Position numbers and translations under genes: made by a program. Under the pieces are notes generated by a model. The model was not told where the DNA came from. It did no database searches and saw nothing but the letters and a program-made list of their open reading frames with translations. A DNA stretch of 58,778 nt. Source: a virus. Lineage: Duplodnaviria; Caudoviricetes. Positions 4,332 to 26,566 of this stretch are shown here, one piece after another; positions within the stretch are counted from its first letter, which is position 1; each line of letters opens with the position of its first letter. The stretch lies in IMG/VR virus record IMGVR_UViG_3300028025_003040, positions 1-58,778 of that record, one strand, 5' to 3'.

Positions 4332-4361
4332 TGTCCTGAGCATGACAACTAAAACTGCTCA
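4332..4361 (+). ncRNA. H-type pseudoknot motif, copy 1
   Basis: TGTC-CTGAGCAT-GACA-actaaaac-TGCTCA. Confidence 0.6.
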
Positions 4362-4388
4362 ACCCACAAACCCAACGAAAGGAATACC

Positions 4389-4805
4389 ATGTCAAGACAA
4401 ATCACAGTAAAGGTAGCAACAGCAAAAGTAATCAAGGCACTAGAGGCTCGTCTAGCAACGCTAGAAAAAGATTACTCATCACAAGAAGCAAACGAAGCCA
4501 AGTATCAAAAAGCCCGTGAAAAGTGGCAGAAAGAAATTGGTAAATGGGCTATTGAGAACTTCTCAAAGGCTGAAAATATCAGAACAAATTATCGTCAATG
4601 GAACAACACTCTTAATGTTGATTTTGACATCATCACAAAGGAAAGCAATTTCCCTACTGAACCTGAAAAAGACTACGAGCAAATCCATCAGCACACTTAT
4701 CGTGAGATGAAAGAGGACATCACAAATGCCCTAACAATTCTCAAAATGACAGATGAGGAAACAGTAAATGCTTCCACAATGAAGCAGATTGCTAAGTATC
4801 TCTAA
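4389..4805 (+). CDS. hypothetical coiled-coil protein
   Basis: ORF track; SD CAACGAAAGGAA at 4373. Confidence 0.85.
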   Translation: MSRQITVKVATAKVIKALEARLATLEKDYSSQEANEAKYQKAREKWQKEIGKWAIENFSKAENIRTNYRQWNNTLNVDFDIITKESNFPTEPEKDYEQIHQHTYREMKEDITNALTILKMTDEETVNASTMKQIAKYL

Positions 4806-4878
4806 CTGATGGCAGGGGGCTAGACAAAATCTAGCCCCCAATGCTACAATAGTTATCCCTACTAACAAAGGAAACAAA

Positions 4879-5103
4879 ATGCGTAATCGCTTTAGAATTG
4901 AAATCTATGACGCAAACAAAGCAAATGATTTAACAATGTACTCAGAGCAAGGCGTAGACAAAGAGTATCTAACTGAATTAGTATTCTCTAACCTCCGCCG
5001 TTTTAATGGTAAAGTTCGTGCCTATGTTTATGATAGCGTAAAGAAAAAGAAAATCACCGCAATGTTTCTTAATGAAGAAACAGTTGCTTCCTTAAATAAA
5101 TAA
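4879..5103 (+). CDS. hypothetical protein
   Basis: ORF track; SD AAAGGAAA; upstream hairpin 4816-4839. Confidence 0.75.
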   Translation: MRNRFRIEIYDANKANDLTMYSEQGVDKEYLTELVFSNLRRFNGKVRAYVYDSVKKKKITAMFLNEETVASLNK

Positions 5104-5108
5104 GAGCT

Positions 5109-5135
5109 TGGGGCGGGATCAAACTCGCCCCATTT
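5109..5135 (+). terminator. putative intrinsic terminator
   Basis: TGGGGCGGG-atcaaa-CTCGCCCCA-TTT right after the stop codon. Confidence 0.55.
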
Positions 5136-5166
5136 CCCAAATGTCCGTTTTGTCTGCCCCCATTCG

Positions 5167-5214
5167 TTGAGGGGTTTTCCACATGTTTACGACAAGCTGT
5201 GGATAACCCTGAAA
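5167..5214 (+). repeat. tripartite element copy 4 with DnaA boxes in both spacers
   Basis: TTGAGGG 5167, TTACG 5187, CCCTGAAA 5207; TTTTCCACA 5175 and TGTGGATAA 5198. Confidence 0.85.
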
Positions 5215-5217
5215 ATT

Positions 5218-5233
5218 TGTGAGATTGATCACA
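5218..5233. promoter_or_regulatory. CRP-family binding site
   Basis: TGTGA-GATTGA-TCACA. Confidence 0.65.
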
Positions 5234-5270
5234 TGACGCAATTCGGACAAATGACTCCTTAGACTAGTAA

Positions 5271-5293
5271 ATGTCAGACCCCTATGTTATACT
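5271..5293 (+). promoter_or_regulatory. RecA-NDp/PafBC-type promoter
   Basis: ATGTCAGAC-N8-TATACT. Confidence 0.75.
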
Positions 5294-5320
5294 AATCAAA
5301 CAATCAACCGAAAGGAAATC

Positions 5321-6325
5321 ATGGCTCACAATCTCGAAACCGAAAACGGCGAAGTTGCATTTGCTCTTCGTGGCGCACCTGCTTGGCATAACCTTGCCAA
5401 TCGTATCTTCAATCAAGATGAAGAAGTTACAACACAAACAATGCTTGATGAAGCAAAACTATCCAACTGGAATGTTCGCTTATCTCCATTGACCGACCAC
5501 ATTTCAGAATCTTGGAATGATGTATCAAATGCATCTCTTGTCATTCGTGACAACCCATTCAATAAGGGAATCGATGTTCTTGCAACTGTTGGCAAACGTT
5601 ACAAGCCTGTGCAGAATGAAGAACTATTTGCATTCGCTGATGCAATTCACGATGCCAATGCTGATTGCCGTTGGGAATCTGCGGGTTCTCTTAAGAAAGG
5701 CAAAGTTGTATTTGGTACTGTAGATATTCCTCGCACAATGGTTCTTGACCCACAAGGCGCCAATGACCAAACAAAGTTATATCTAATCGTATGGACATCA
5801 CACGATGGTTCTGTTGCCGTTCAAGCAGCGGTTACACCTGTTCGTGTTGTATGTCAAAACACGCTAAACCTTGCAATGAAGAATGCTAAGCAATCTTTCA
5901 AGATTCGCCACACGCAATCTGTTGAAGGTCGCATTCAAGTTGCTCGTGAAACTCTTGGGCTTGCTCTTGGTTATTTCGATGAATTCGAAGTTCAAGCAAA
6001 GGCTCTTTATTCACAAGCAATTACCGATGCTGAATTCTCTAAGTTAATTCAGACAATCTATCCTAAGCCTGAAAAAGATGCTAAGGGTGCATTGAAGAAG
6101 TGGGAAAATAAAGTTGTTCTAATTGACGACCTTTATCATAACTCACCAACCAATGCGACAATCAAGGGAACAAAGTGGGGTGCATTCAATGCACTAACTG
6201 AGCGCCTTGATTACTACCGCTCTGGTCGTGGTAATTCAGAATCCCTAATGGCGGGTGCAAGTGGTTTTGACCCAATCTTAACCGCAGAAAAAAATAAGTT
6301 GTATCGAATGGTTGCAACTTTCTAA
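5321..6325 (+). CDS. DUF932-family (TIGR03299-like) phage/plasmid protein
   Basis: MAHNLE..PAWH, YKPVQN, ESAGSL, SHDGS, TPVRVVCQNTL, GTKWGAFNALTE motifs. Confidence 0.85.
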   Translation: MAHNLETENGEVAFALRGAPAWHNLANRIFNQDEEVTTQTMLDEAKLSNWNVRLSPLTDHISESWNDVSNASLVIRDNPFNKGIDVLATVGKRYKPVQNEELFAFADAIHDANADCRWESAGSLKKGKVVFGTVDIPRTMVLDPQGANDQTKLYLIVWTSHDGSVAVQAAVTPVRVVCQNTLNLAMKNAKQSFKIRHTQSVEGRIQVARETLGLALGYFDEFEVQAKALYSQAITDAEFSKLIQTIYPKPEKDAKGALKKWENKVVLIDDLYHNSPTNATIKGTKWGAFNALTERLDYYRSGRGNSESLMAGASGFDPILTAEKNKLYRMVATF

Positions 6326-6331
6326 ATAATA

Positions 6332-6360
6332 AAATCCTGAGCAAGATTTAAAACTGCTCA
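6332..6360 (+). ncRNA. H-type pseudoknot motif, copy 2
   Basis: AAATC-CTGAGCAA-GATTT-aaaac-TGCTCA, 6 nt before tRNA-Asp. Confidence 0.6.
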
Positions 6361-6366
6361 CCATTT

Positions 6367-6443
6367 GGTCCATTAGCTCAGTTGGTTAGAGCGCTACCCT
6401 GTCACGGTAGAGGTCGACGGTTCAAGTCCGTTATGGATCGCCA
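6367..6443 (+). tRNA. tRNA-Asp(GTC)
   Basis: Cloverleaf; anticodon arm CTACC-CTGTCAC-GGTAG; TTCAAGT T-loop; encoded CCA. Confidence 0.93.
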
Positions 6444-6473
6444 GGTGTATCAAAATGTGAGACGCCCCCAAGA

Positions 6474-6522
6474 TTGAAGGCAGGATTTTTGTGTTACGAA
6501 TCACAAAAAAATTACCCTGGAA
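6474..6522 (+). repeat. tripartite element copy 5 with overlapping CRP-like site
   Basis: TTGAAGG 6474, TTACG 6494, CCCTGGAA 6515; TGTGT-TACGAA-TCACA 6490-6505. Confidence 0.8.
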
Positions 6523-6533
6523 AGCTATTGTAA

Positions 6534-6556
6534 ATGTCAGTGGCACCCACTATAAT
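6534..6556 (+). promoter_or_regulatory. RecA-NDp/PafBC-type promoter
   Basis: ATGTCAGTG-N8-TATAAT; second copy GTGTCAGAC-N8-TAGAAT at 6679-6701. Confidence 0.75.
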
Positions 6557-6562
6557 AGCGAC

Positions 6563-7207
6563 ATGTTCAAATCATATTGGTATGTGTGTACATCTTGTGA
6601 TGCATCTATTGAGATCGTATCTAAGGGAATACATTTTCAGGACCCGTCCTGTAATTGTTCAGACCCAGCAGTTGTATGGTGTCAGACCAGTGTGGTAGAA
6701 TCATCCACTAACCAAACGAAAGAGGAACAAATGGAAGAAACAACATATGGAGCAACAGTAACACCTGCAGTAACCGTGCCTGACACATACAATCCTAATC
6801 TATTGGTAACCTATAAAGTTATCCACGGATATTCAGATGCAGAATACGCAACTGATAAGGTCACATCAATTGAATGGGACTTGCACAATGCACGTCAAGC
6901 ACAGAAGCGTAATGCAGTTTTTCAAGATAAGATTGATGCAGTCAAGCAAATTATCTGCGAAGCATATGCAGATTCACAAGACCAAGACACATTGCGTGAA
7001 ATTGCTGAAGCGCTTGATATTGAACTTGTCAAGGAAGTTGAGTGGACTGCATCTATCGAAGTTAGCGGAACATATTCATACAACATTCTTGAGAATGATT
7101 ACGAGTTAGACCTCGAGTCAGATATTACAGATGCAATCTTTGCTGATTCACATCACGGAAACATTGAAATTAATGACCAAGAAGTATGTAATGTTAGGGA
7201 AGCCTAA
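6563..7207 (+). CDS. hypothetical protein with N-terminal Zn-ribbon; alternative start at 6731
   Basis: Track ORF 6491; ATG 6563 lies 6 nt after a -10 box; ATG 6731 has its own SD and promoter. Confidence 0.7.
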   Translation: MFKSYWYVCTSCDASIEIVSKGIHFQDPSCNCSDPAVVWCQTSVVESSTNQTKEEQMEETTYGATVTPAVTVPDTYNPNLLVTYKVIHGYSDAEYATDKVTSIEWDLHNARQAQKRNAVFQDKIDAVKQIICEAYADSQDQDTLREIAEALDIELVKEVEWTASIEVSGTYSYNILENDYELDLESDITDAIFADSHHGNIEINDQEVCNVREA

Positions 7208-7422
7208 TGTATTTTGAACTAAAGGCACCAAACCAGTTGGCCCTGCAAGGGGCCTTCTGGGAAGCCGAAGTAGTTGGTCTTGACCCTGAATTAAATTCAC
7301 AACCATTGACATTCAATATCGGAACTGGTAGCATAGAGAAGGTGAGTCGCATTCGTGATAAGTATAACTTAGTAGAGTCATACACTAGCGATTACGAGCC
7401 AACAGGATATACAAGGAGATAA
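7207..7422 (+). CDS. hypothetical protein
   Basis: ORF track; TAATG coupling. Confidence 0.75.
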   Translation: MYFELKAPNQLALQGAFWEAEVVGLDPELNSQPLTFNIGTGSIEKVSRIRDKYNLVESYTSDYEPTGYTRR

Positions 7423-7423
7423 A

Positions 7424-7570
7424 ATGTCAGACTATAAAGATGGTTTCACAGATGGCGTTAAGTGGGCTAAGGAAGACTTAGCAGAGCGCCTACGTGAAAT
7501 TGATATTATGGATATCGATTCGTGGATGTTAGATAGACTAGCAGATATGATAGAGGGCGGAGATCTCTAA
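7424..7570 (+). CDS. small hypothetical protein (48 aa)
   Basis: Read by hand; AAGGAG SD. Confidence 0.65.
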   Translation: MSDYKDGFTDGVKWAKEDLAERLREIDIMDIDSWMLDRLADMIEGGDL

Positions 7571-7773
7571 TGGAAGATTTAACTAGATGGATCGGCTGCG
7601 ATCAATGCGGGACAGCTCAAGCAATGTATCTAATTAAACTAGTAGATGGTGAGCTGTACTTTTGTCACCACCACTATAATAAAAACAAAGAGGCCCTTGA
7701 CAAGGTTTCATTTGAAATGATAGAATTGAATAAAACAGAAGAAGTACCTCAACTAGAAACGGCGGAAATATAA
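7570..7773 (+). CDS. small Zn-binding protein
   Basis: CDQC...FCHHH motif. Confidence 0.7.
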   Translation: MEDLTRWIGCDQCGTAQAMYLIKLVDGELYFCHHHYNKNKEALDKVSFEMIELNKTEEVPQLETAEI

Positions 7774-8180
7774 TGGGAGATAGAGCAAACTTTGGATTCG
7801 TCCAACCTAATGGAAATACAATTGTGCTATACGGTCACTGGGCTGGATACAACATGCTTGGTAAGTTAGCGGATGCTGTAATCGCTGCTCGTCCAAGGTG
7901 GACCGATACATCATATGCAACACGTATTGCTATCAGTCAATTAATTGGAGACCAATGGAATATGGAAACAGGTTGGGGCCTGCAGGTAAATGAGCGCTCT
8001 GACAATGAACATAAGATTGCAATCGTAGACTTTGAACAGCAAACGTTTTCTCTTCACGAGGAAGACGACTTTAGAAATCAAGACAACAAAGTTCGTGGAA
8101 TGAAGAATGAAGCAATCTTTACCATGGACCTGTCAGCATTCTGCGAGAAGTATGCATTGGAAAATATCTTAGTCAACTAA
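7773..8180 (+). CDS. hypothetical phage protein
   Basis: ORF track; MGDRAN..LYGHW N-terminus. Confidence 0.8.
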   Translation: MGDRANFGFVQPNGNTIVLYGHWAGYNMLGKLADAVIAARPRWTDTSYATRIAISQLIGDQWNMETGWGLQVNERSDNEHKIAIVDFEQQTFSLHEEDDFRNQDNKVRGMKNEAIFTMDLSAFCEKYALENILVN

Positions 8181-8196
8181 TATGATATAATATTGA

Positions 8197-8330
8197 TAGG
8201 CCTGGTGCCTATTCATATGAGTGGTGCATCTACTCAAGATGCTAAGTAAGGCAGGTTTTTCCTTTCGTTGAGGTCCTAGCAGCCGCTCCTTTAAACCCCC
8301 GTGTATTACAGTCCACGGGGGTTTATTCTT
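8197..8330 (+). ncRNA. candidate sRNA with anti-Shine-Dalgarno loop
   Basis: TGaTATAAT at 8183-8191; internal stems; TTTCCTTTCGTTG at 8258-8270; terminator AAACCCCCGTG..CACGGGGGTTT at 8293-8324; no credible ORF. Confidence 0.6.
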
Positions 8331-8342
8331 GCCCGCAAAAGC

Positions 8343-8391
8343 TTGAGGGTAAAATATTCTTCTTACGGAAGTCAAATAAATTTCCCAGGAA
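8343..8391 (+). repeat. tripartite element copy 6
   Basis: TTGAGGG 8343, TTACG 8363, CCCAGGAA 8384. Confidence 0.8.
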
Positions 8392-8442
8392 TTTCAGCAT
8401 ATGAGATCATGTGGTGTAGAACACACCCATATAGTATATACA

Positions 8443-8465
8443 ATGTCAGTGGTCTAATATATAAT
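8443..8465 (+). promoter_or_regulatory. RecA-NDp/PafBC-type promoter
   Basis: ATGTCAGTG-N8-TATAAT. Confidence 0.75.
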
Positions 8466-8492
8466 AAGAACATATCAGCGAAAGGATATAAT

Positions 8493-9269
8493 ATGCCAAA
8501 CTGGGTGTATAACACATTAACTATACAAGGACCAAAAGAACAAGTAGATTCAATTAAAGATAGATTAAATGCTCCATTTACATTAGCACAGGAGACATTT
8601 GGTATGGGTGATATTTCTTCTATGGGATTTCCTACTAAGATTATTCAGGTATCTTATTCTAATCCCGTTTTTTCTTTCAACAATATCCATTCATATAAGG
8701 ATGACGGAATTACTGATGAGGAATATGCCTGCCAACCTAATCGTGGTGATATAGATATTCAGAATGACCCTGATTGGTTCCGCAAATCTGTTGAGTTTGC
8801 TAAGACTCAGAAGGATTGGTACTCTTGGAATAATTCTAACTGGGGAACTAAATGGGATGTAGCCGTCCGTGACGGAGATGAATATCCAAATACAGAACTA
8901 ATTGAATATAAGTCAGAAGGTGAAGACAACTGGGTTATATATAAATATGAGACTGCATGGTCACCTGCTGTAACTATCTTAACTAAACTAAGTAATCTTG
9001 TTCCTAACTGTGTTCTTACTTTAGAATTTGAGGAAGAGACAGGTTGGGGTGGTGAATATGAAATTATCAAGGGTGAAGTAAGAGAACTAATGGAATGGGA
9101 GAATCGTTGTTATGCTTGCCAATCTTTTGATACATTGAGTTACTGTGAAGATGAATGTGGAGAGTTCTGCTCAGAATGTAATCAAGGCTCTTGGCAGGAT
9201 GAAGAGGCAATGGCAAAATGTCAGACCCACATGGTACTATTGGAATCTACAGAAAAGGCGGAAGTATGA
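8493..9269 (+). CDS. DUF1281/YubB-like ferredoxin-fold protein with Cys-rich tail
   Basis: MPNWVYNTL start, WYSWN..NWGTKWD, ETAWSP motifs; internal promoter at 9218-9240. Confidence 0.75.
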   Translation: MPNWVYNTLTIQGPKEQVDSIKDRLNAPFTLAQETFGMGDISSMGFPTKIIQVSYSNPVFSFNNIHSYKDDGITDEEYACQPNRGDIDIQNDPDWFRKSVEFAKTQKDWYSWNNSNWGTKWDVAVRDGDEYPNTELIEYKSEGEDNWVIYKYETAWSPAVTILTKLSNLVPNCVLTLEFEEETGWGGEYEIIKGEVRELMEWENRCYACQSFDTLSYCEDECGEFCSECNQGSWQDEEAMAKCQTHMVLLESTEKAEV

Positions 9270-9496
9270 GTTTCTTAGAAAACGAAAACCAAATGGTGAT
9301 TGACGCTGAACTGCAAGAAATTGCAGAACAGTTATTAGATGACTGGATGAATTCTAATTTAGATGAAGGTCAGTTATATGCAGATTGGAGAATTGCAGAC
9401 ATGTCATCTAGCAATTATCTCAAAGGTAGGTTTAATCAACATTATGATTTAACACCTGATAACCAATACTATCTAGAATTTGATGAGGAGAAATAA
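9266..9496 (+). CDS. hypothetical acidic protein
   Basis: ATGA coupling. Confidence 0.7.
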   Translation: MSFLENENQMVIDAELQEIAEQLLDDWMNSNLDEGQLYADWRIADMSSSNYLKGRFNQHYDLTPDNQYYLEFDEEK

Positions 9497-9660
9497 TGTT
9501 AGGGTATACGCAGAAAGATTTGGCAGATATGACCTATGGGGTCTACCAAGCTGACCTGTTGGTCAATGCTGATGAAAATCCTGCAATTCATAATTATTTA
9601 GTTATGGCTCATGATTTCTTACAGGGCTTGTGGGCAGAAGGGTATTTCGATCATGTCTAA
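9496..9660 (+). CDS. small hypothetical protein (54 aa)
   Basis: Read by hand; GAGGAG SD, TAATG coupling. Confidence 0.65.
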   Translation: MLGYTQKDLADMTYGVYQADLLVNADENPAIHNYLVMAHDFLQGLWAEGYFDHV

Positions 9661-9838
9661 ATCATCTTACTTCCTAGAATATATGAAAGTTCATTTAATT
9701 AGTCTTATACAAGATTTAGATAAAGATTTGAATGTTGAATCTAAGATTAATATCCAAGGACAAATTATGGCAACAGAACATTTGTTGTCAGTGGCTACTG
9801 ATATAATGAATTCTTCTAACGAAAGGGTATATGAATGA
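9653..9838 (+). CDS. hypothetical protein
   Basis: Track ORF 9611 re-started; contains TTGTCAGTG-N8-TATAAT at 9785-9807. Confidence 0.65.
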   Translation: MSKSSYFLEYMKVHLISLIQDLDKDLNVESKINIQGQIMATEHLLSVATDIMNSSNERVYE

Positions 9839-10098
9839 GACATACTGAACTTCCCGTCCATTTACAACGAATGGTAGACGCAGAGGTAACGGGGCTCGAC
9901 ATCATGCATGGAGAACTAAAAAACCTCATGCTTCTTGGAGAAAAGGAATTAGAGCGGACCTTGATAGCGGAACAAGAATCAGGAGAAGCAATGGATTCTA
10001 TGGAACGTACTTATGCAGAAGGATATCTAGACGCATTAGTATCTTTATATAAACTAACATATGATTTATCATTTGCCATTGGGGGAAAAAATGAGTAG
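9835..10098 (+). CDS. hypothetical protein
   Basis: ORF track; SD AACGAAAGGG. Confidence 0.75.
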   Translation: MRHTELPVHLQRMVDAEVTGLDIMHGELKNLMLLGEKELERTLIAEQESGEAMDSMERTYAEGYLDALVSLYKLTYDLSFAIGGKNE

Positions 10099-10321
10099 TT
10101 ATGAGCCAAGCTTGGAAATCCTGGAAGTTAATTACGGCTGTTCTCCAGGAGGTGTAGATACATTTGAGGTCTATGATAGATCTGAGATTGAGCCTGTACA
10201 AATACCAATATATGAGACAGAGTCCTTGACCGAAGCGGTCCTATTCTGTTACAATTTGGGAAAGGACTTTATTGTTCGAACATTAGCGGAATGGGAAGAA
10301 CGGGAGTTAATGAATGCCTAA
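10091..10321 (+). CDS. hypothetical protein
   Basis: Track ORF 10061 re-started at overlap. Confidence 0.7.
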   Translation: MSSYEPSLEILEVNYGCSPGGVDTFEVYDRSEIEPVQIPIYETESLTEAVLFCYNLGKDFIVRTLAEWEERELMNA

Positions 10322-10493
10322 ATACAGAGTCTTTGGAGTTCAAGAAAAGAATTACTATGCAATCGTTGAGGCAACTGACGAATATGAAGCATGGGACATA
10401 ATCAACGGGGACAAAGTCTTCCAATGGTTTGCAATACCTACAGATAAAACAATCGAACCTACTGAAGTATATGGGGAGTATGATGAAGCCTGA
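10314..10493 (+). CDS. small hypothetical protein (59 aa)
   Basis: Read by hand: MPKYRVFGVQEKNYYAIVEATDEYEAW... Confidence 0.65.
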   Translation: MPKYRVFGVQEKNYYAIVEATDEYEAWDIINGDKVFQWFAIPTDKTIEPTEVYGEYDEA

Positions 10494-11189: not shown

Positions 11190-11192
11190 CTA

Positions 11193-11221: not shown

Positions 11222-11255
11222 AATATAAAACAATATCTCGAAAGGATATACTACT

Positions 11256-19757: not shown

Positions 19758-19787
19758 TATATATACAATTATACAGTATATATATAA

Positions 19788-20516: not shown

Positions 20517-20817
20517 GTTTTTTCTTTAACCTCTTCCAGACATCTTGTGTTTTATGGATGTTTCTTGCTTTATCAATTGAACCAGAATTTAAATAAACTC
20601 CACCCCAAATTCCATGTTCATCATTTTCTATACCAGACTCATAACACATTTTTATAACTGGACAAGATAGACACGCTTCGTCTATACTTTTTGCTATATT
20701 TGAATCTGCTTCATATTTTTCATAAAATAAATTGGTATCCATTCCTCTACATACTGCAAGGTGCCACCAATCAAAATCATCTTTATCTATGCCGAGATCA
20801 TTTAAAATACTTGACAT
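20506..20817 (-). CDS. whiB: WhiB-family Fe-S transcription factor
   Basis: W...AVCRG.DTNLF, CLSCPVIKMC, GIWGG. Confidence 0.92.
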   Translation of the reverse strand: MSSILNDLGIDKDDFDWWHLAVCRGMDTNLFYEKYEADSNIAKSIDEACLSCPVIKMCYESGIENDEHGIWGGVYLNSGSIDKARNIHKTQDVWKRLKKKHGK

Positions 20818-21031
20818 ATTTTTTAGGCAACTTCCATATTCCTTCAGAGTTTACGGATACGTTCTCTGCTATTCCCCAAGCATCTTTTCTAAATCTGCCA
20901 CTTAAGCTTGTAAATCCTTCTGGGTTTTTATTCCAGATAACTAGTTTATAGTTCTCCCAAAATGATTCTTGGGTATTCTTTTTATATCTATCTATAAATA
21001 TTTCTACACCACGGTGGGTTAAATTTAACAT
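20798..21031 (-). CDS. hypothetical protein
   Basis: ORF track; promoter TTGACA-N18-TATAAT at 21097-21068. Confidence 0.7.
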   Translation of the reverse strand: MLNLTHRGVEIFIDRYKKNTQESFWENYKLVIWNKNPEGFTSLSGRFRKDAWGIAENVSVNSEGIWKLPKKYVKYFK

Positions 21032-21100
21032 ATTTTCCTAACACTAAACCGTAGCATCCCAAGTACTATTATACAGGAAAAGCTACGGCTGTGTCAATGA

Positions 21101-21883
21101 TTACTTTAAGAAAGTTCCGCCCCATACGGACTTTTTAATTGGCTCTTCTTTATCTTCTTTATCGTATGATTTTTCAATAGGTACACAATTTGGAACCATT
21201 CTGCCATTCTTTTCTTTCATGCCTCTTTGTGTATACCCTGACCAGCAAGCCTTTTGCATATTATCCCACTTATCTTCTTCTTCATTATCTGACTCATAAT
21301 CTTCTGATTTAGACATATCTTCAATTTCGGCAGAATCTTCTGACTCTACCTCTGGGACCTCGATCATGCCTTCAATTGCTTCCATTAAATGCTCTATAAC
21401 CATGCTTAATTGCTCTTTTGTAATTTCAGAACGTACAGCCTTGTTTATATTTTCATCCTCTGGTATCTCAATAACTGTTTCAATTGGATTAACTACGTCC
21501 TCTAGCATACCTTTAATCTCTTCTATAATTTCTTCTTCGTGCCCGTGCCAATCTTTTTTCATTGTTTTCTCCCTATTAACTATTTTACGTGACCAAGAAA
21601 ATCCTGCGTCTCCGCCCCATGCTAACCACATTATTTTTCCATTAGAAGGACTTTCTGCGTTATCCCAGTCTTTGCCTTTTTTATCTACTTCATGACGTGA
21701 AAAATAAGAATACATGCGTTTAACTGTAGAGAGACTTAAAGTTTCTCCTCTAGCAAGCTGTCCTGCACGAGTCCAGCCCACCGCTGTTCCAGCGCCTTTA
21801 GCTTTACCCTGCTCTTTTAATTTAATAGCACGACGTGCTGCTGATTGCATACCAGAGGTTGGTTTGTATCCTTCTTTAGCCAT
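21101..21883 (-). CDS. hypothetical protein, possibly head-associated
   Basis: Basic N-terminal domain (GTAVGWTRA..RHE..WGGDAG), acidic linker, CWSGY..GMK..VPNCVP module. Confidence 0.7.
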   Translation of the reverse strand: MAKEGYKPTSGMQSAARRAIKLKEQGKAKGAGTAVGWTRAGQLARGETLSLSTVKRMYSYFSRHEVDKKGKDWDNAESPSNGKIMWLAWGGDAGFSWSRKIVNREKTMKKDWHGHEEEIIEEIKGMLEDVVNPIETVIEIPEDENINKAVRSEITKEQLSMVIEHLMEAIEGMIEVPEVESEDSAEIEDMSKSEDYESDNEEEDKWDNMQKACWSGYTQRGMKEKNGRMVPNCVPIEKSYDKEDKEEPIKKSVWGGTFLK

Positions 21884-22026
21884 TATTTCTCCTTGACACT
21901 AATTACTTTAACGTTTTTAATTTCATCATCTACACCAAATATATCATTAGCATAGTCTAGAGCGTCATTTTGATCAAAGGCTTCTACTTCTGCCTCGACC
22001 TCTAGCTTAACTCTATATGTGTTCAT
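21883..22026 (-). CDS. small hypothetical protein (47 aa)
   Basis: Read by hand; coupled on both sides. Confidence 0.6.
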   Translation of the reverse strand: MNTYRVKLEVEAEVEAFDQNDALDYANDIFGVDDEIKNVKVISVKEK

Positions 22027-22029
22027 TTA

Positions 22030-22599
22030 TTACTTGCCGCAAGTTGGGCAAACTTTTGTCTTAGCTTTAGTAGTTTTTTGTTCTGCTGACTTGGGTGCTG
22101 CGCCAAACTTTGGACGACCAAAACCTACGATTGAAATTAATACCCCAGCCTTATTTTTTTTGTAAGCACGAAGTTGTTTGCAAACTTCTCCACCATTTCT
22201 TTGGCTTCCAGACTTCTTTGAAGACGTGTTTCCTTCTATACACCAAACGGTTCCATCTTCGTTATCCTTTACAACAATTCCTACGTGAGACACCCTATCT
22301 ACGCCATCTGATGGGAAATCAAAATAGGCTATATCTCCTGGCTCTGGGTCTGCAATGTCTCCATCAATCCATGAGTTAGCTTTCTTAAATGCCGTTACTC
22401 CTGCTGGGGTATAGACTGTATTAGGTATTTTTACTCCAGCCTCGTTACCACACCAGTTAACAAAACTTCCACACCATGGTTGGAAATTAGCCTTAGTGTA
22501 AGCGCCATATTTTGTTTCGTTATCTTTTGGACCTTCAATGGTCCCAATCTCTGCTGTAGCAACTTCAATTAAACGTGCTGCTGTACCTTGATCTGCCAT
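22030..22599 (-). CDS. endolysin, CHAP amidase/peptidase
   Basis: QPWCGSFV, PGDI, SHVGIV, IEGN. Confidence 0.85.
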   Translation of the reverse strand: MADQGTAARLIEVATAEIGTIEGPKDNETKYGAYTKANFQPWCGSFVNWCGNEAGVKIPNTVYTPAGVTAFKKANSWIDGDIADPEPGDIAYFDFPSDGVDRVSHVGIVVKDNEDGTVWCIEGNTSSKKSGSQRNGGEVCKQLRAYKKNKAGVLISIVGFGRPKFGAAPKSAEQKTTKAKTKVCPTCGK

Positions 22600-23009
22600 T
22601 AGTCCTTGTCCCAATCTGTATCAACTGGTTGTTCTGCTGGCATTTCTCCGTCTGGTTTTGCCGCTAAACGTGCTGCAGTAGCATCAATTTCTGCTTCTAA
22701 TTTTTTATCTGCCTGTGTGTTCTTGGCATCTACTTCTTTGTTTTGTATTTGAGCCGCCATAATGTCTTTAGCTCCTGAGTTTCCGATAAGAATTCCTGCA
22801 AGAGTACCTGTAATGAATGTTGCAATGCTACCCAGCACATTAAAAAACATTTTATCGTTCTCTGACTGTGCTCCAATAGGTTGTGTTACAAACAATAATC
22901 CATAAATAATTCCGAGTGCTGTCAGGAAAAGAATGCTTCCAAGAGTTATTCCTAGAATAAACTTTAAACGTGCATCTAAATCTGCAGCTGTTAATCTTTC
23001 TTTAGCCAT
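22599..23009 (-). CDS. two-TM membrane protein (holin candidate)
   Basis: Two hydrophobic helices; coupled to endolysin. Confidence 0.55.
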   Translation of the reverse strand: MAKERLTAADLDARLKFILGITLGSILFLTALGIIYGLLFVTQPIGAQSENDKMFFNVLGSIATFITGTLAGILIGNSGAKDIMAAQIQNKEVDAKNTQADKKLEAEIDATAARLAAKPDGEMPAEQPVDTDWDKD

Positions 23010-23217
23010 TTGTTATTTCCTGTTCTGGTGTAATAGGTGTAATTGTTATTACATCTTTGGTGCAAGTCTGAGAGGCTTCACATTCTGGGGGATTGCATTC
23101 TGAAATCTCCCAGTTTTTAGGATCTTGACATGGATAGCGATACCTGTTTAAAGAGTCACACCCAGTCAATGATAGCATTAATAGCCCAGATAGGGCAATA
23201 GTAATTAATTTCCTCAT
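23002..23217 (-). CDS. small lipoprotein
   Basis: Signal peptide with lipobox LTG-C; Cys/Pro-rich. Confidence 0.7.
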   Translation of the reverse strand: MRKLITIALSGLLMLSLTGCDSLNRYRYPCQDPKNWEISECNPPECEASQTCTKDVITITPITPEQEITNG

Positions 23218-23231
23218 GCTACTATTATACC

Positions 23232-23414
23232 TTACTCTGATTCTTTATTTCTAGCAGGGCTTGTAATTATCCAAAGGGCCGTTGTTGCTATAATTCCATA
23301 GCCTACTATAGTTTTTGCGCTTCCGTCCAAAACGACCCAAGCAATAAACATGCCAAGAAGGGTCCAGGCCTGATCAATTAGATCCTTGATTATATTTTTA
23401 AGTATTCTTACCAT
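23232..23414 (-). CDS. small two-TM membrane protein
   Basis: Two hydrophobic segments. Confidence 0.65.
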   Translation of the reverse strand: MVRILKNIIKDLIDQAWTLLGMFIAWVVLDGSAKTIVGYGIIATTALWIITSPARNKESE

Positions 23415-25807
23415 TTTCTACCTCCTCGTGAACCTGGTGAATTGGCTCCTGAGCCTCCACCAGAACTTCCTCCTCCGCCTGTGCCACTTCCTGTGGCTCC
23501 TCCTGCGGCAACTGCTGCTGCGTTAATTGCAGCGCCTCCTGCAATTACTGTAGCAACAACCATATCTGTTGCTTCTTCTCTTTCTGCATCTGACATATCT
23601 GCACCTATGCTTCCAAATGCAGCCAATGCTGCTGCTGGATCATTAAATAATTCTTCTACAAGTGCTGATGGGTTCTGTAATAATTCTACCTGTGCCGCAA
23701 CTTCAGCAGTAATTACAACTGCATTTCCATTTTCATCCGTTCTAACATCTACTGGTGTTGATGCTGGTAGATCTTTATATTCAATCCCAGATGCTTTTAT
23801 ATCTGCAGAACTTAATGCTTCTCCTGGCTTTAAATCTTCAATAAGACTTTCAACTACCGCATCTTTTTGTTCTTCAGTTAATTCTTTACCATCTTCTATT
23901 GCTTTTTCAAGGGCCTCTGCTTCTGCTTCTTTTGCTTCTGCCTCCGCCTTTAGTTTATCTGCCTCTGCTTGTTTAGCTTTTGCTTCTGCTTTAGCGTTTT
24001 CTTCTTCTTGTGCTTTATCTTCCGCTTCTGCCCTTGCTTGCTCTTCTGCTTGTCTTGCAGCTTCTGCTTCTGCTTCTAATCTTTCTGCTTCCGCTTCTAA
24101 TCTTTCTGTTTCCGCTTTTGCTGCAGCCTCTTCTGCTGCGACACGATCTGCTTCTGCTTTAGCTGCTGCTTCCTCAGCAGCAACTCTATCTGCTTCTGCT
24201 TTTGCTGCAGCCTCTGCAGCTGCTTTAGCTTCTGCTTCCGCTTTTGCCGCTGCTTCAGCGGCTGCCTTTGCCTGTGCTTCTGCTTGAGCCGCTGCAGCTT
24301 CCGCTGCCGCAGCTTCTTGTGCTGCTTGTTGTGCCGCTGCTTCCGCAGCTGCTTGAGCCGATGCCTGTACTGCTGCTCTCTGCTCTGCATAATAATTTGT
24401 AGTAACCTGTGCAGCATTTGTCATTGCTGTTACTGCTTCATTTACTTTTGTAGTTGCTGTATTTGCAAGGGAGTCTGCTGTTTGAACTGCAACTGTTAGG
24501 TTTTCATTAGCAGTTGTGAGGTTTTGTTGCTGAGTTGTTAGGTTTGTCTGAGCGGTTGTTAGGTTTGTTTCTGCAACTGTTTTTTCTGCCACAAGTGTTG
24601 TTAACACGGCAACTTCTGCCACCTTAATTTCTGTTTTATCAGCGACTACTGCTGTTTGACTTTCTATTTGAGCAGTTAATTCTGTATTAGTTACATTTGT
24701 CATTGCTTGCACTGGCTGCCCAGAAGTTTCACGTACACCAATACGAGGTCCGTTATATAAGTTAGTTGTATTTCCAGCAACTGTACCAACGCCTGTCCAT
24801 TCTCCAGTTGTAGGGTTTACGGTCATAGTCCAGTTAACATTTGTAATTGAACTGCCTGGATTACCAAATAAGTGTAAATCCCAATCAACAGCAAGAGTTG
24901 TTTCTGTGGTTGTTACTGTAATTCCAGCGTTAGGTCCTGCACTTTGGAAGTCAGAACCAAAGACTGAGATACTTGGTCCGTTAGGGAAATCCCACCAATT
25001 ATAGTCTCCAATACCAAAAGTAATAGTTGCTTTAGAGGTTACATAAATTTGACTATTATTTCCTTGTCCTTCATAAACCGTGTCTCCCATTTTAATATCA
25101 AATGGTGTGCTGATCTTTGTTGCAGCATCATACATAGGAGGCAAAACTGTAGTAGTAACGGTTGGCGTGTCTACTGGTTCTGGTGCTACATATCCCTCAG
25201 TAGTGTATGTCTTGCTGTCTGATGGTGTGTTCTGAAGCTCTGTTAATGTGGTCTGAGCATTAGTAAGATTAGTAGTGGCAGTTGCTACTACGGCAGTTTG
25301 GCTTTCTACTGCTGCGGTTGCGGTAGTAACAGTAGCGGTGGCTGATTCAACGACTGTTGTTGCTGTTGCTACTATTGCTGTTTGAGATTCAACTGCTACC
25401 TGAGCTGTTTGTGCAACTGTTACTGCTGTCTCAGCAGATTGAATTGCTGTTGTGGCTTCTTGTACCTTTACTGTAGCCTCTGCTACCGCAGTAGCAATTG
25501 GTTCTTGTGTGGTAGCAATTGTAGCTGCTTGCGTTGTTGTTGTGTTAGGAACATTAGTTTGAATTGTAGTAGTTATAGCAGTTGCTTGTTCTTCTGCTGC
25601 CGCCTGCAATGTCTCCGCTGCCGCTTCAACCTTATCTGCAACTGTCTCAACTGTAATAGGAGTGGTTGCTGTGGCAGTGTCTGAAGAAGGATTAACTGGA
25701 GTTACTTGAACTGTTGGCTCATCAGCATTTGCTATGCTAGGCCCAAAAAGGAAAAGCCAGCCGATTATAAAAAGGCTGGTTAAAAAGTATTGAAACTTTC
25801 TAGTCAA
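23408..25807 (-). CDS. large exported Ala/Thr-rich fibrous protein
   Basis: Signal peptide (..SIANA); coiled-coil stalk interrupted by a beta-rich domain; EAAAKAEA repeats; hydrophobic then Gly-rich C-terminus. Confidence 0.75.
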   Translation of the reverse strand: MTRKFQYFLTSLFIIGWLFLFGPSIANADEPTVQVTPVNPSSDTATATTPITVETVADKVEAAAETLQAAAEEQATAITTTIQTNVPNTTTTQAATIATTQEPIATAVAEATVKVQEATTAIQSAETAVTVAQTAQVAVESQTAIVATATTVVESATATVTTATAAVESQTAVVATATTNLTNAQTTLTELQNTPSDSKTYTTEGYVAPEPVDTPTVTTTVLPPMYDAATKISTPFDIKMGDTVYEGQGNNSQIYVTSKATITFGIGDYNWWDFPNGPSISVFGSDFQSAGPNAGITVTTTETTLAVDWDLHLFGNPGSSITNVNWTMTVNPTTGEWTGVGTVAGNTTNLYNGPRIGVRETSGQPVQAMTNVTNTELTAQIESQTAVVADKTEIKVAEVAVLTTLVAEKTVAETNLTTAQTNLTTQQQNLTTANENLTVAVQTADSLANTATTKVNEAVTAMTNAAQVTTNYYAEQRAAVQASAQAAAEAAAQQAAQEAAAAEAAAAQAEAQAKAAAEAAAKAEAEAKAAAEAAAKAEADRVAAEEAAAKAEADRVAAEEAAAKAETERLEAEAERLEAEAEAARQAEEQARAEAEDKAQEEENAKAEAKAKQAEADKLKAEAEAKEAEAEALEKAIEDGKELTEEQKDAVVESLIEDLKPGEALSSADIKASGIEYKDLPASTPVDVRTDENGNAVVITAEVAAQVELLQNPSALVEELFNDPAAALAAFGSIGADMSDAEREEATDMVVATVIAGGAAINAAAVAAGGATGSGTGGGGSSGGGSGANSPGSRGGRKW

Positions 25808-25873
25808 TTAGGATCTCCTAAGTAATGCAATATTTTTGCTTACTTAGTAATTATAGCAGAATGTTAGTTTAAA

Positions 25874-26059
25874 CTACTTGGGATTATCTGTTTTATAAAA
25901 GCCACTACCATTGAACTGAATTCCAAATGATCCATAGTGTCTTACAAGATTAGCGTTACATTTTTGACAACCATATGTTGGCTCATCATCTGTGATGCTT
26001 CTTTCAAATTGTACGACATCCTCTGGAGAGCATTCACACTTGTACTCGTATATTGGCAT
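25874..26059 (-). CDS. FmdB-family Zn-ribbon protein
   Basis: MPIYEYKC...CQKC...FNGSGFYKTD. Confidence 0.85.
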   Translation of the reverse strand: MPIYEYKCECSPEDVVQFERSITDDEPTYGCQKCNANLVRHYGSFGIQFNGSGFYKTDNPK

Positions 26060-26466
26060 TACTTACCGCTCTTTTTTCTCTTTTCAGCTAAGGCAACGAA
26101 GTCTTTGACCTTAGTTTCTCCCATGTATCCCCACGCATAACCATCTTCAATCATTTGTTCATTAACAGACTTATTGTTTCCGTCAATATAAACCCAACCT
26201 AAAATACGACCATACTTTTCAGAACTATCTGGTTTTTCTGTTTTTACAACAATTTCTTTAGCATCTTTAAATTTAGATTTTAGATACTCTTTTGACTCTA
26301 AGCCTAATGTCTTTTCAAGTTTGTCTGTTGTTCTTGACTCTGGTGTGTCAATTCCTGCCAACCTAAGTCTTTGAGAATATGAAATGCTGAATCCAAGATC
26401 AATGTCAACATCAATAGTATCTCCGTCCACTATCTTTGTTACTTGCTTAACTCTGTATTCAAACAT
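26059..26466 (-). CDS. thermonuclease (SNase-like)
   Basis: IVDGDT, RLAGIDTPE, KYGRILG; start moved to ATG after AAGGAG. Confidence 0.88.
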   Translation of the reverse strand: MFEYRVKQVTKIVDGDTIDVDIDLGFSISYSQRLRLAGIDTPESRTTDKLEKTLGLESKEYLKSKFKDAKEIVVKTEKPDSSEKYGRILGWVYIDGNNKSVNEQMIEDGYAWGYMGETKVKDFVALAEKRKKSGK

Positions 26467-26485
26467 AATTCTCCTTAAATTTAAA

Positions 26486-26566
26486 GAGCAGTTTTGGGAC
26501 GTGCTCAGGTCCATCCTTCGGGTAGCGACCCGAATAGTCTGCGACTCCCCAGTGACGGGGTGCAGA
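26486..26566 (-). ncRNA. structured leader ending in pseudoknot copy 3
   Basis: On the - strand: TCTGC..GCAGA stem, TTCGGGT..ACCCGAA hairpin, GGAC-CTGAGCAC-GTCC-caaaac-TGCTC; TATAAT at 26577-26572. Confidence 0.6.

What the first reader, a model, noticed from the sequence alone, without database searches (positions are those of the whole stretch)
4332..26512. A 27-30 nt RNA pseudoknot occurs three times with compensatory changes
Seen: stem1-CTGAGCAN-stem1'-(N)AAAAC-TGCTC(A) at 4332-4361 (+), 6332-6360 (+) and 26512-26486 (-). Stem 1 differs in each copy but always pairs (TGTC/GACA, AAATC/GATTT, GGAC/GTCC), while loop GAGCA pairs with TGCTC. Each is in the sense direction, just 5' of an SD or of tRNA-Asp. 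Inference: a compact H-type pseudoknot acting as a 5' exonuclease (RNase J) block, a processing signal, a protein-binding site or a small riboswitch. I cannot assign it to a named family.
Basis: partly seen in the sequence, partly recalled or inferred. Interest (0 to 1): 0.7.

Follow-up and report, generated by a model that had tools for sequence, protein, structure and literature searches.

The report
Tiny boundary RNA pseudoknot of phages
The three repeats are real copies of a tiny knotted RNA that very many phages place just after the end of a gene, often right before a spot where the RNA is cut, so it probably caps and protects the end of the message, though nobody has tested this.

Summary
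The loose pattern hits 3 times and 0 times in 100 shuffles.

The motif belongs to a very large family, and both stems covary.
- It occurs in cultured phages of Mycobacterium, Paracoccus and Synechococcus.
- Rfam 15 has no match, and four literature searches found no description.

The motif is anchored to the upstream stop codon, not to the downstream SD. The spacer is 4-9 nt in 205 of 597 copies. Forty-seven copies sit at most 30 nt before a tRNA 5' end, as window copy 2 does. Five sit directly before a hammerhead ribozyme.

My reading, at about 0.45: it is a self-folding roadblock that is left as the 3' end-cap of the upstream cistron. Rivals are a coremin-like 5'-to-3' block, a folding or ribosome insulator, a ribozyme and a riboswitch.

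This scan has flagged the same family on at least eight other genomes.

The parts
4332..4361 (+). Pseudoknot copy 1: P1 4332-4335/4344-4347, L1 CU 4336-4337, P2 4338-4342/4356-4360, L2 4343, L3 ACUAAAAC 4348-4355, +1 A 4361
   Evidence: Sequence read. R1 hit 4329-4362, 47.3 bits, E 5.4e-11. The same L3 type recurs before homologues of the 4389-4805 gene in other loci.
4314..4316 (+). Stop codon (TAA) of the 65-aa ORF 4119-4316, 15 nt before P1 of copy 1
4389..4805 (+). 138-aa ORF downstream of copy 1. A C/A-rich unstructured leader and the SD AAAGGAA lie between it and the motif. No Pfam or PHROG family matches.
   Evidence: Relatives appear in contigs from lake RNA libraries.
6332..6360 (+). 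Pseudoknot copy 2: P1 6332-6336/6345-6349, L1 6337-6338, P2 6339-6343/6355-6359, L2 6344, L3 AAAAC 6350-6354, +1 A 6360
   Evidence: Sequence read. R1 hit 6330-6361, 52.8 bits, E 1.2e-12.
6323..6325 (+). Stop codon (TAA) of the DUF932 gene 5321-6325, 6 nt before P1 of copy 2
   Evidence: PF06067, E 7e-56.
6367..6443 (+). tRNA-Asp (GTC). Its 5' end, the RNase P site, lies 7 nt after the last P2 base of copy 2.
   Evidence: ARAGORN. Rfam tRNA, 67.7 bits.
26486..26512 (-). Pseudoknot copy 3: P1 26512-26509/26500-26497, L1 26508-26507, P2 26506-26502/26490-26486, L2 26501, L3 CAAAAC 26496-26491
   Evidence: Sequence read. R1 hit 26484-26515, 39.4 bits, E 1.2e-8.
26518..26567 (-). Two stable hairpins between the Hsp20-like gene (26582-26998, stop at 26584-26582) and copy 3
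   Evidence: Fold of 26585-26478, -30.4 kcal/mol, z -2.1. A similar upstream sequence precedes the L056 copy.
26059..26466 (-). SNase-like nuclease gene. The SD AAGGAG at 26476-26471 lies 9 nt after copy 3, and the start ATG is at 26466-26464.
   Evidence: (PF00565, E 2e-17). Homologues follow the motif in several loci.

Best explanation
The element is a self-contained H-type RNA pseudoknot of 27-30 nt.

Anatomy:
- P1 is 4-7 bp and its sequence is free, but it is closed by C-G.
- L1 is CU.
- P2 is GAGCA/UGCUC. It probably extends to 6 bp through the L1 U pairing with the +1 A.
- There is a one-base junction that is almost never G.
- An A-rich L3 ends in AAAC and is suited to lie in the P1 minor groove.

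Phages and other mobile elements place it at cistron boundaries, usually 4-9 nt after a stop codon.

Proposed mechanism (inferred):
- The knot folds on its own and acts as a mechanical roadblock.
- The transcript is then cut or ended a few bases further on. The cut can come from RNase P at an adjoining tRNA, from an adjoining hammerhead, from a U-tract terminator or from another endonuclease.
- The knot is left as the 3' end of the upstream cistron with only a 4-13 nt tail.
- That stops 3'-to-5' exonucleases before they reach the stop codon and the coding region.
- It also insulates the neighbouring tRNA, ribozyme or ribosome-binding site from the coding RNA.

In this window:
- Copy 2 would cap the DUF932 mRNA after RNase P cuts at tRNA-Asp.
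- Copy 1 would cap or insulate the 65-aa ORF's message.
- Copy 3 would do the same for the hsp20-like message, ahead of the next gene.
For: SHOWN: structure.
- With P2 fixed by the search pattern, 138 of 151 instances have at least 3 consecutive P1 pairs next to the loop; my own estimate of the chance rate is about 5%.
- The fourth P1 pair was not used for selection. It is paired in 105 of 118 cases and uses six pair types.
- With P1 fixed and P2 left free, 155 of 188 sites have 5 of 5 P2 pairs, against 1 of 20 in reversed-sequence controls.
- Inner P2 pair 3: the compensated form GAACA/UGUUC gives at least 104 unique instances, 85 of them with P1 of 3 or more. The uncompensated form GAACA/UGCUC gives 35, only 5 of them with P1 of 3 or more.

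SHOWN: position, on 597 non-redundant instances unless another call is named.
- A same-strand ORF stops 4-9 nt before P1 in 205, 0-3 nt before it in 4, and 10-30 nt before it in 140.
- A tRNA 5' end lies within 30 nt downstream in 47, spread over 12 tRNA types. In the first sample the gap was 4-14 nt.
- Five copies are followed at once by a type III hammerhead: L201 twice, L193, L002 and L115. None has a true hammerhead upstream.
- In L201 the order is ORF, stop, knot, hammerhead, RBS, 51-aa ORF, stop, 6 nt, knot, hammerhead, RBS, ORF. Self-cleavage there must leave each knot at the 3' end of a cistron and cut it away from the next one.
- 64 of the 597 are followed directly by a T-run.
- 79 of 194 copies have no start codon within 120 nt downstream, yet 43 of those 79 follow a stop codon within 30 nt.

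INFERRED: that the knot resists exonucleases, and in which direction.
Against: - No RNA ends were seen. The RNA runs that hold relatives are assembled contigs, which cannot show ends.
- Seven of 597 copies lie within 60 nt after a tRNA. Four of these are tRNA-knot-tRNA spacers, where no mRNA is there to be capped.
- In 60 of 194 copies, including window copies 1 and 3, the next feature is simply an SD and start 15-60 nt away, with no recognisable cut site.
- 16 of 194 have no same-strand gene close upstream, by my crude ORF calls.
- An ordinary hairpin would also cap a 3' end. The strong sequence conservation asks for an extra reason.
- The closest experimentally studied look-alike, coremin, blocks a 5'-to-3' enzyme.
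- Many tRNA-Asp cases belong to one syntenic cluster (25 of the 32 tRNA cases fall in one flank-similarity cluster), so they are not independent.
Confidence: 0.45

Rival explanations
1. It is a 5'-to-3' exoribonuclease-resistant RNA, a coremin/xrRNA-like block to RNase J or a similar enzyme. It would shield the RNA downstream of the knot and define stable 5' ends.
For: Resemblance to the coremin motif and its Watson-Crick form:
- a short hairpin with a C-G closing pair;
- a loop that starts with a pyrimidine;
- an A-rich linker ending in AAAC;
- loop-to-linker pairing GAG/CUC followed by A.
These features come from PMC6546385 passages and the Results of PMC10321173.

The cultured carriers infect Mycobacterium, Paracoccus and Synechococcus; I recall these hosts as having RNase J. 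In addition, 60 of 194 copies lie 15-60 nt before a start codon.
Against: - Coremin's defining second hairpin is absent. The 32 nt downstream fold no better than shuffles (-2.81 against -2.70 kcal/mol), and only 23 of 192 have a hairpin of -5 kcal/mol or better starting within 6 nt.
- The loop is 8 nt (CUGAGCAN), not YGAD or YGNNAD.
- The same authors report that frameshifter pseudoknots without that architecture do not stall Xrn1 (abstract).
- Before tRNAs and hammerheads the knot is cut off from the RNA it would have to protect.
Confidence: 0.2
2. It is a folding and translation insulator. A fast-folding inert knot would stop the terminating or sliding ribosome and upstream coding RNA from disturbing the next module (a tRNA, a ribozyme or a ribosome-binding site). 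It would have no role in RNA decay.
For: - The sharp lower limit and the 4-9 nt peak of the stop-to-P1 spacer. This places the knot where I recall the ribosome's mRNA entry lying at termination.
- tRNA-knot-tRNA spacers.
- Hammerhead stem III starts 0-5 nt after the knot.
- The region after the knot is unstructured, least of all before start codons (-2.04 kcal/mol).
- Coremin blocks scanning ribosomes (abstract of PMC10520033).
Against: A spacer or any stable hairpin would insulate as well, so the conservation of sequence across phyla is not explained. There is no direct evidence.
Confidence: 0.12
3. It is itself a processing signal. Either it is a new, very small self-cleaving ribozyme, or it is a mimic of a tRNA acceptor arm that RNase P cuts in L1.
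For: - It sits where self-cleaving ribozymes cluster in phages, next to hammerheads and tRNAs.
- The unpaired bases C, U and AAAC are invariant.
- +1 is A in 136 of 194 copies and +2 is C in 98 of 194, which resembles a discriminator plus CC.
- That RNase P cuts pseudoknotted plant-virus tRNA-like ends is recalled, not checked here.
Against: - If the knot cut itself, a hammerhead 0-5 nt further on would be redundant.
- The +1 A is explained more simply by pairing with the L1 U.
- It matches no ribozyme family at E up to 10.
- At 27 nt it is far smaller than any known natural self-cleaver (recalled).
Confidence: 0.1
4. It is a ligand-sensing riboswitch (the topology resembles preQ1-I) or the binding site of a specific regulatory protein.
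For: - It has the same H-type layout as the smallest riboswitches (recalled).
- There are two junction classes with a tightly linked double change: AAAC-UGCUC against AAAA-GGCUC. The second class is found in at least 115 stretches.
- The frequent neighbour tRNA-Asp is a queuosine-modified tRNA (recalled).
Against: - There is no preQ1 or other riboswitch hit at E up to 10.
- The SD lies 9-30 nt outside the fold, and nothing downstream can switch.
- The neighbouring genes are unrelated: nuclease, PadR-like, ATPase, ArdA-like, tRNAs.
- There are several copies per genome, in phages of very different types, so no shared phage protein is available.
Confidence: 0.07
5. It is a transcription element: the 'hairpin' of an intrinsic terminator, or an RNA that acts on RNA polymerase or Rho.
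For: 64 of 597 copies are followed within 0-3 nt by a run of 4 or more T, and many copies end a gene block before promoter-like regions.
Against: About nine in ten copies have no T-run. None of the three window copies has a predicted terminator or promoter beside it beyond chance. Copies in front of tRNAs and start codons must be read through.
Confidence: 0.05

Closest known systems
Coremin motif (xrRNA-C) of plant and other RNA viruses, especially its Watson-Crick form xrRNA-WCC (PMC6546385, PMC10321173, PMC10520033)
   Same: - A small hairpin with a C-G loop-closing pair.
- A loop that starts with a pyrimidine.
- An A-rich linker ending in AAAC, thought to lie in the stem's minor groove.
- An antiparallel loop-to-linker helix whose outer pairs are GAG/CUC followed by A.
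- A position in untranslated regions at gene ends.
- A proposed roadblock function.
   Different: - The loop is 8 nt (CUGAGCAN), not YGAD or YGNNAD.
- P2 is 5-6 bp, not 3.
[quoted passage not shown]
- The hosts are bacteria, which have no Xrn1.
- The anatomy here points to protection of the upstream side, not the downstream side.
Compact luteovirus-type frameshifting pseudoknots (recalled, not checked here)
   Same: The same H-type plan: a short P1, a 1-2 nt L1, a one-base junction, and an A-rich loop in the P1 minor groove. They are known for mechanical resistance.
   Different: The phage knot lies after stop codons and has no slippery site. Only 11 of 194 copies lie inside a long open frame.
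MALAT1 / MEN-beta 3' triple helix with the downstream tRNA-like mascRNA cut by RNase P
   Same: A protective compact structure directly upstream of a tRNA-shaped RNase P site, so that cleavage creates a capped 3' end. Window copy 2 followed by tRNA-Asp has this layout.
   Different: That system is eukaryotic, is a U-rich/A-rich triple helix that buries the 3' end itself, and has a different sequence and size. Here the cut can also be made by a hammerhead.
preQ1-I riboswitch (Rfam RF00522)
   Same: An H-type pseudoknot of about 30 nt whose A-rich tail pairs back to the hairpin loop.
   Different: - No model match at E up to 10.
- The SD is not part of P2.
- There is no link to queuosine genes.
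- The junction loop is a single unconserved base.
Bacterial intercistronic stabiliser hairpins, REP elements and terminator hairpins (recalled)
   Same: They sit after a cistron and block 3'-to-5' exonucleases, which gives operon segments different stabilities.
   Different: Those are plain hairpins of lineage-specific sequence. This is a sequence-conserved pseudoknot shared across phages of many phyla.

Membership tests
Coremin / xrRNA-C | 5' hairpin of 3-5 bp with a C-G loop-closing pair | tested here: met
   The closing pair is C-G in 187 of 194 copies and G-C in 7. P1 is 4-7 bp. The criterion comes from PMC6546385.
Coremin / xrRNA-C | Loop consensus YGAD (4 nt) or YGNNAD (6 nt) | tested here: not met
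   The loop is the 8-nt CUGAGCAN in all three window copies and in the family. The last base is U, A or C and almost never G.
Coremin / xrRNA-C | Second hairpin (hp2) directly downstream, required for Xrn1 resistance | tested here: not met
   The 32 nt downstream give a mean MFE of -2.81, against -2.70 for shuffles. Only 23 of 192 have a hairpin of -5 kcal/mol or better starting within 6 nt. Window copies 1 and 3 have none.
Coremin / xrRNA-C | Conserved 10-nt spacer between the hairpins | tested here: inconclusive
   Only the AAAC core is shared. L3 is 4-9 nt and variable at its 5' side.
Coremin / xrRNA-C | Stalls a 5'-to-3' exoribonuclease | not testable with these tools
   This needs an enzyme assay or 5'-end mapping.
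Watson-Crick coremin (xrRNA-WCC) | Antiparallel loop-to-spacer helix of three Watson-Crick pairs (GAG/CUC) followed by A | tested here: met
   The outer three P2 pairs are GAG/CUC, and +1 is A in 389 of 597 copies. P2 has two further pairs that coremin lacks.
preQ1-I riboswitch (RF00522) | Match to the family's covariance model | tested here: not met
   No hit at E up to 10 around copies 1 and 3, and none at gathering score in the whole window.
preQ1-I riboswitch (RF00522) | Expression platform: the SD or a terminator is part of, or competes with, P2 | tested here: not met
   The SD lies 9 and 19 nt after the fold in copies 3 and 1. The downstream region is unstructured.
Self-cleaving ribozymes in Rfam (hammerhead, twister, pistol, hatchet, HDV-like) | Match to a family model | tested here: not met
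   Nothing matches on the motif itself. Hammerhead_3 matches lie next to the motif, not on it.
Self-cleaving ribozymes (new class) | Site-specific self-scission | not testable with these tools
   This needs an in vitro cleavage assay or mapping of cyclic-phosphate and 5'-OH ends.
Intrinsic terminator | Structure followed at once by a U-tract | tested here: not met
   A T-run of 4 or more starts within +1 to +4 in 64 of 597 copies. It is absent at all three window copies.
Programmed -1 frameshift pseudoknot | Lies inside overlapping reading frames, 5-9 nt after a slippery heptamer | tested here: not met
   The motif follows stop codons. Only 11 of 194 copies lie inside an open frame of 100 codons or more.
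tRNA-like acceptor pseudoknot (TYMV type) | 3'-terminal ACCA after the pseudoknot helix | tested here: inconclusive
   +1 is A in 136 of 194 copies, +2 is C in 98 of 194 and +3 is C in 77 of 194. The motif is internal, not terminal. The +1 A can instead pair with the L1 U.

The most novel reading that the evidence does not exclude
Phages and other mobile elements of many bacterial phyla share a universal 'cut-and-cap' punctuation system. A 27-nt stop-codon-anchored pseudoknot is paired with an adjoining tRNA (cut by RNase P), a hammerhead or another cut site. Together they turn long transcripts into individually capped, exonuclease-proof cistrons that always keep their stop codon. This would be a bacterial-world counterpart of the MALAT1 triple helix with mascRNA. 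The two junction classes (C-U and A-G) may tune it to different nucleases.
Probability: 0.3. Interest if true: 0.85.

Novelty: new variant of a known kind. Interest (0 to 1): 0.72.

Why it matters
If the reading is right, this is one of the most widespread structured RNA elements of phages, and it is still missing from Rfam.
- It would explain how phages with long polycistronic transcripts, and with embedded tRNAs and ribozymes, give single genes their own stability.
- It would give hammerheads and 'stray' phage tRNA genes a role as cutting partners.
- It would offer a 27-nt portable stabiliser or insulator part for synthetic biology.
- It would give phage genome annotation a marker of cistron ends.

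Even if the direction of protection turns out to be the opposite, it would be the first bacterial counterpart of viral exonuclease-resistant RNAs.

Tried and rejected
- Public RNA runs. Only small shares of the stretch were held, all as assembled contigs. No starts or ends can be read. One contig (X4, depth 2.5) joins 4362 to 4856, which keeps the knot with its upstream side; that is only a hint.
- Host test for a link to RNase J. The pattern in 400 further genomes of G001's class gave 1 match (G338); it and the centre genome's own match both lack P1, so both are chance. In 400 further genomes of G002's phylum it gave none; only the centre genome matched.
- Genome-contig scan. 120 matches in 118 loci, of which only 54 have P1 of 3 or more. 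The rest are chance hits in coding DNA; for example, all the Pseudomonas hits lack a convincing P1 (at most 3 pairs).
- Promoter and terminator scans beside the window copies: nothing above shuffles.
- Flank-similarity analysis. 321 pairs are alike only upstream, 161 only downstream and 231 on both sides. This is confounded by coding conservation, so I do not use it as evidence.
- Neighbour orientation by crude ORF calls. 27 copies are at gene-block ends and 16 at block starts; this is weak.
- Megablast of 3000-9000 against named phages: no match.
- My first regex scanner was faulty and was replaced.
- The hammerhead regex 'upstream' hits proved to be coding-sequence false positives.
- Literature searches found no description of this element. 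The Patience paper (PMC4324244, passages only) has no RNA-end data. Supplementary files of all papers were not seen.
- Outer P2 pair. I expected strict covariation, but the A.C mismatch form is common: 110 stretches, 84 unique, 74 with P1 of 3 or more. That pair is therefore dispensable.

Full report
1. THE OBSERVATION

The three sites are exactly as described. Each reads P1, CU, GAGCA, N, P1', (N0-3)AAAAC, UGCUC. P1 is TGTC/GACA at 4332-4347, AAATC/GATTT at 6332-6349 and GGAC/GTCC at 26512-26497 on the minus strand.

The loose pattern GAGCAN{4,20}AAACTGCTC occurs 3 times in the window and never in 100 dinucleotide shuffles. All three copies are intergenic and point the same way as the flanking genes.
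- Copy 1 lies 15 nt after the stop of a 65-aa ORF and 19 nt before the SD of a 138-aa ORF.
- Copy 2 lies 6 nt after the stop of a DUF932 gene and 7 nt before tRNA-Asp.
- Copy 3 lies 69 nt after an Hsp20-like gene, behind two hairpins, and 9 nt before the SD of a staphylococcal-nuclease-like gene.

The window is the whole of a 58.8-kb phage record that is estimated to be 54% complete. It is a siphovirus-like phage. Its DnaE polymerase is 58% identical to those of large Streptomyces phages.

2. A VERY LARGE FAMILY WITH TWO COVARYING STEMS

That pattern says nothing about P1. Even so, 138 of the 151 instances in the window and these loci have at least 3 consecutive P1 pairs next to the loop; by my own estimate chance would give about 5%. 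By eye, about seven of the other 13 have the stem behind a 2-4 nt junction, and six are chance hits in coding DNA.

I aligned 121 unique copies (A1).
- The fourth P1 pair, which was not used for selection, is paired in 105 of 118 and uses six pair types.
- The second and third pairs each use four pair types.
- The covariation score is 0.337, against 0.079 for shuffles and at most 0.046 for slid partners.

A covariance model (R1) does not know about P2 pairing. It found further variant copies in the same loci. All seven CCUAAGCA loops there carry a tail ending in U. The GGGCA, GAACA and one GAGUA loop carry the matching UGCCC, UGUUC and UACUC tails.

A scan that fixes only P1, CU and AAAC/AAAA found 188 sites, against 20 in reversed controls. 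Of these, 155 have 5 of 5 P2 pairs, against 1 of 20 in the controls.

Whole-collection scans give the cleanest test.
The uncompensated GAACA/UGCUC form has 35, only 5 of them with P1 of 3 or more.
- Outermost pair: this result is less tidy. The A-U form has at least 114 stretches, but the A.C mismatch form has 110 (84 unique, 74 with P1 of 3 or more), so that pair is dispensable.

The ordinary nested fold shows that the L1 U can pair with the base after UGCUC. That base is A in 389 of 597 copies, so P2 is probably 6 bp and L1 a single C.

The junction base is G in only 10 of 597 copies.

A second class changes two neighbouring bases together, from AAAC-UGCUC to AAAA-GGCUC. It is itself abundant: at least 115 stretches, and 104 of 115 unique copies have P1 of 3 or more. 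I have no explanation for this linked change.

3. WHERE THE MOTIF SITS

I analysed 597 non-redundant copies in 435 viral loci plus the window. The sample is shaped by the patterns used to fetch the loci.
- A same-strand open frame of 60 codons or more stops 4-9 nt before P1 in 205 copies, 0-3 nt before it in 4 and 10-30 nt before it in 140. The first sample showed the same sharp lower limit.
- Downstream the picture is mixed. In the first 194 copies, 32 have a tRNA within 30 nt, 60 have an SD and start at 15-60 nt, 23 have one at 61-120 nt and 79 have nothing within 120 nt. Of those 79, 43 still follow a stop codon within 30 nt.
- In the large sample, 47 copies precede a tRNA 5' end within 30 nt. 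These cover 12 tRNA types, with Asp in 31. Seven copies follow a tRNA within 60 nt, and four of those seven are tRNA-knot-tRNA spacers with gaps of 0-3 nt.
- Most tRNA-Asp cases belong to one syntenic module and are not independent.
- In one cellular contig (L143) a copy lies about 27 nt after a tRNA.

Five copies are followed at once by a type III hammerhead.
- L201 has two: 50.5 bits, and 41.2 bits at E 2e-7.
- L002 has one at 32 bits, E 9e-5, and L115 has its homologue.
- The L193 case I identified by eye.

In L201 the order on the RNA is ORF, stop, 11 nt, knot, hammerhead, RBS, 51-aa ORF, stop, 6 nt, knot, hammerhead, RBS, ORF. After self-cleavage each small message must end in the knot plus six bases. 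The knot is cut away from the next message.

A run of 4 or more T follows directly in 64 of 597 copies. The 32 nt after the knot are no more structured than shuffles.

4. DISTRIBUTION

True copies occur in three cultured phages:
- Mycobacterium phage Labelle, 9 nt after the gene 85 stop;
- the T7-like Paracoccus phage ParKuw1;
- the T4-like cyanophage S-RIM4, 13 nt after a stop, with the GAGUA variant.

True copies also occur in about 54 of 118 cellular contigs hit by the pattern: Saccharibacteria, Lachnospiraceae, Anaerolineae, Clostridium, Calothrix and others. In those the neighbours look like mobile-element genes, for example ArdA-like, by my reading of the translation, and PadR-like.

No phage-encoded partner can be common to such carriers. 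The knot must therefore act alone or with something universal, such as the ribosome, RNA polymerase or the general RNases.

5. WHAT IT IS NOT

- Rfam 15 has no match, at gathering score in the whole window or at E up to 10 around copies 1 and 3.
- It is not a frameshift signal: it follows stop codons, and only 11 of 194 copies lie inside long frames.
- It is not a classical terminator: about nine in ten copies lack a T-run.
- It is unlikely to be a riboswitch: there is no platform, and the neighbouring genes are unrelated.

6. MECHANISM

What is shown is the fold, the anchoring to the upstream stop codon, and the frequent presence of a defined cut or end a few bases downstream.

What I infer is this.
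- The knot is a mechanical roadblock that remains as the 3' end of the upstream cistron.
- Its tail is only 4-13 nt.
- It therefore keeps 3'-to-5' exonucleases from eroding the stop codon and the coding region.
- As a side effect it insulates the neighbouring module.

Window copy 2 (DUF932 gene, knot, 7 nt, tRNA-Asp) is the standard example of this layout.

I put this reading at about 0.45. The main rival, at 0.2, is the reverse direction: a coremin-like block to a 5'-to-3' enzyme. The rest is spread over an insulator, a ribozyme or RNase P signal, a riboswitch or protein site, and a transcription element.

The tRNA-knot-tRNA spacers, and the many copies with no recognisable cut site, are the chief facts that the cap reading does not explain.

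7. COMPARISON WITH KNOWN ELEMENTS

The nearest described element is the coremin motif and its Watson-Crick variant. I read passages of PMC6546385, the abstract and Results of PMC10321173 and only the abstract of PMC10520033.

Shared features:
- the C-G closing pair;
- the pyrimidine-first loop;
- the AAAC linker;
- GAG/CUC-A pairing.

Not shared:
- the loop consensus;
- the obligatory second hairpin;
- the host kingdom.

It therefore may work like coremin, but it fails the membership test.

The luteovirus-type frameshift knots and the MALAT1 triple helix with mascRNA are resemblances I recall from memory and did not check here.

8. EARLIER NOTES OF THIS SCAN

Look-ups show that agents have met the same family on at least eight other genomes and named coremin as the closest relative.
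- I took the coremin lead from those notes and tested it, as described above.
- My stop-codon result agrees with e1-5665468 and e1-6023092.
- My reading of the protected side differs from e1-5910934.
These notes are not independent evidence.

9. NOVELTY AND VERDICT

The family is real and very widespread. It is absent from Rfam 15, and four full-text searches found no description. Supplementary files were not visible to me.

It is a new variant of a known kind, the compact roadblock pseudoknot. Its function is untested. Interest 0.72.

Noticed in passing
window 26518-26567 (- strand): Two stable hairpins fill the gap between the Hsp20-like gene and knot copy 3. One has a CUGCACCCC...GGGGAGUCGCAG stem and the other a UUCGGG...CCCGAA stem. 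A similar GGGGAGTCGCAG stretch precedes the L056 copy. They may belong to the same 3' UTR, or to a small RNA that ends in the knot.
   Followed up: partly
L003 86-101, L019 6543-6558, L064, L066, L070, L083, L089, L095, L102, L107, L118: A conserved 16-nt hairpin element, TAGTAGGGGGCTACTA, often preceded by TTGACA, lies in 11 related loci; in those I inspected it sits directly upstream of a knot copy. It is absent from the window.
   Followed up: partly
related loci, 20-100 nt after many knot copies, e.g. L003, L006, L064, L065, L088, L089: There are recurrent TTATCCACA-like (DnaA-box-like) words and TGTGATC...GATCACA inverted repeats. They look like operator or promoter regions that start a new transcription unit right after the knot.
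   Followed up: no
family-wide; e.g. L098 5603-5634, L019 3672-3703: A second junction class has two linked changes, AAAC-UGCUC to AAAA-GGCUC. It is found in at least 115 IMG/VR stretches, often in the same genomes as class 1. It precedes a tRNA within 30 nt in only 2 of 120 copies, against 45 of 477 for class 1. This is unexplained.
   Followed up: partly
L388, L303, L532, L446: The knot is used as the spacer between two tRNA genes, with 0-3 nt on the upstream side and about 3 nt on the downstream side. tRNA processing would release it as a free RNA of about 30 nt.
   Followed up: partly
window 4304-4839 and 5242-6179: Relatives of the 138-aa ORF and of the DUF932 gene, 88-99% alike, are present in contigs from lake-water RNA libraries. 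Contigs cannot rank expression.
   Followed up: no
window 26464-26514 (- strand): The mechanical ORF 26059-26514 starts at an ATG inside the knot. The real start of the nuclease gene is probably the ATG at 26466-26464, behind the SD AAGGAG.
   Followed up: yes
window 4361-4388: The leader between copy 1 and the next start codon is C/A-rich and G-poor. Similar leaders follow the orthologous copies in other loci.
   Followed up: no
L201 7271-7325 and 7541-7595 (- strand): Two type III hammerheads lie in a contig binned as Polynucleobacter, and each bounds a very small ORF. Together they form a ribozyme-punctuated mini-operon.
   Followed up: partly
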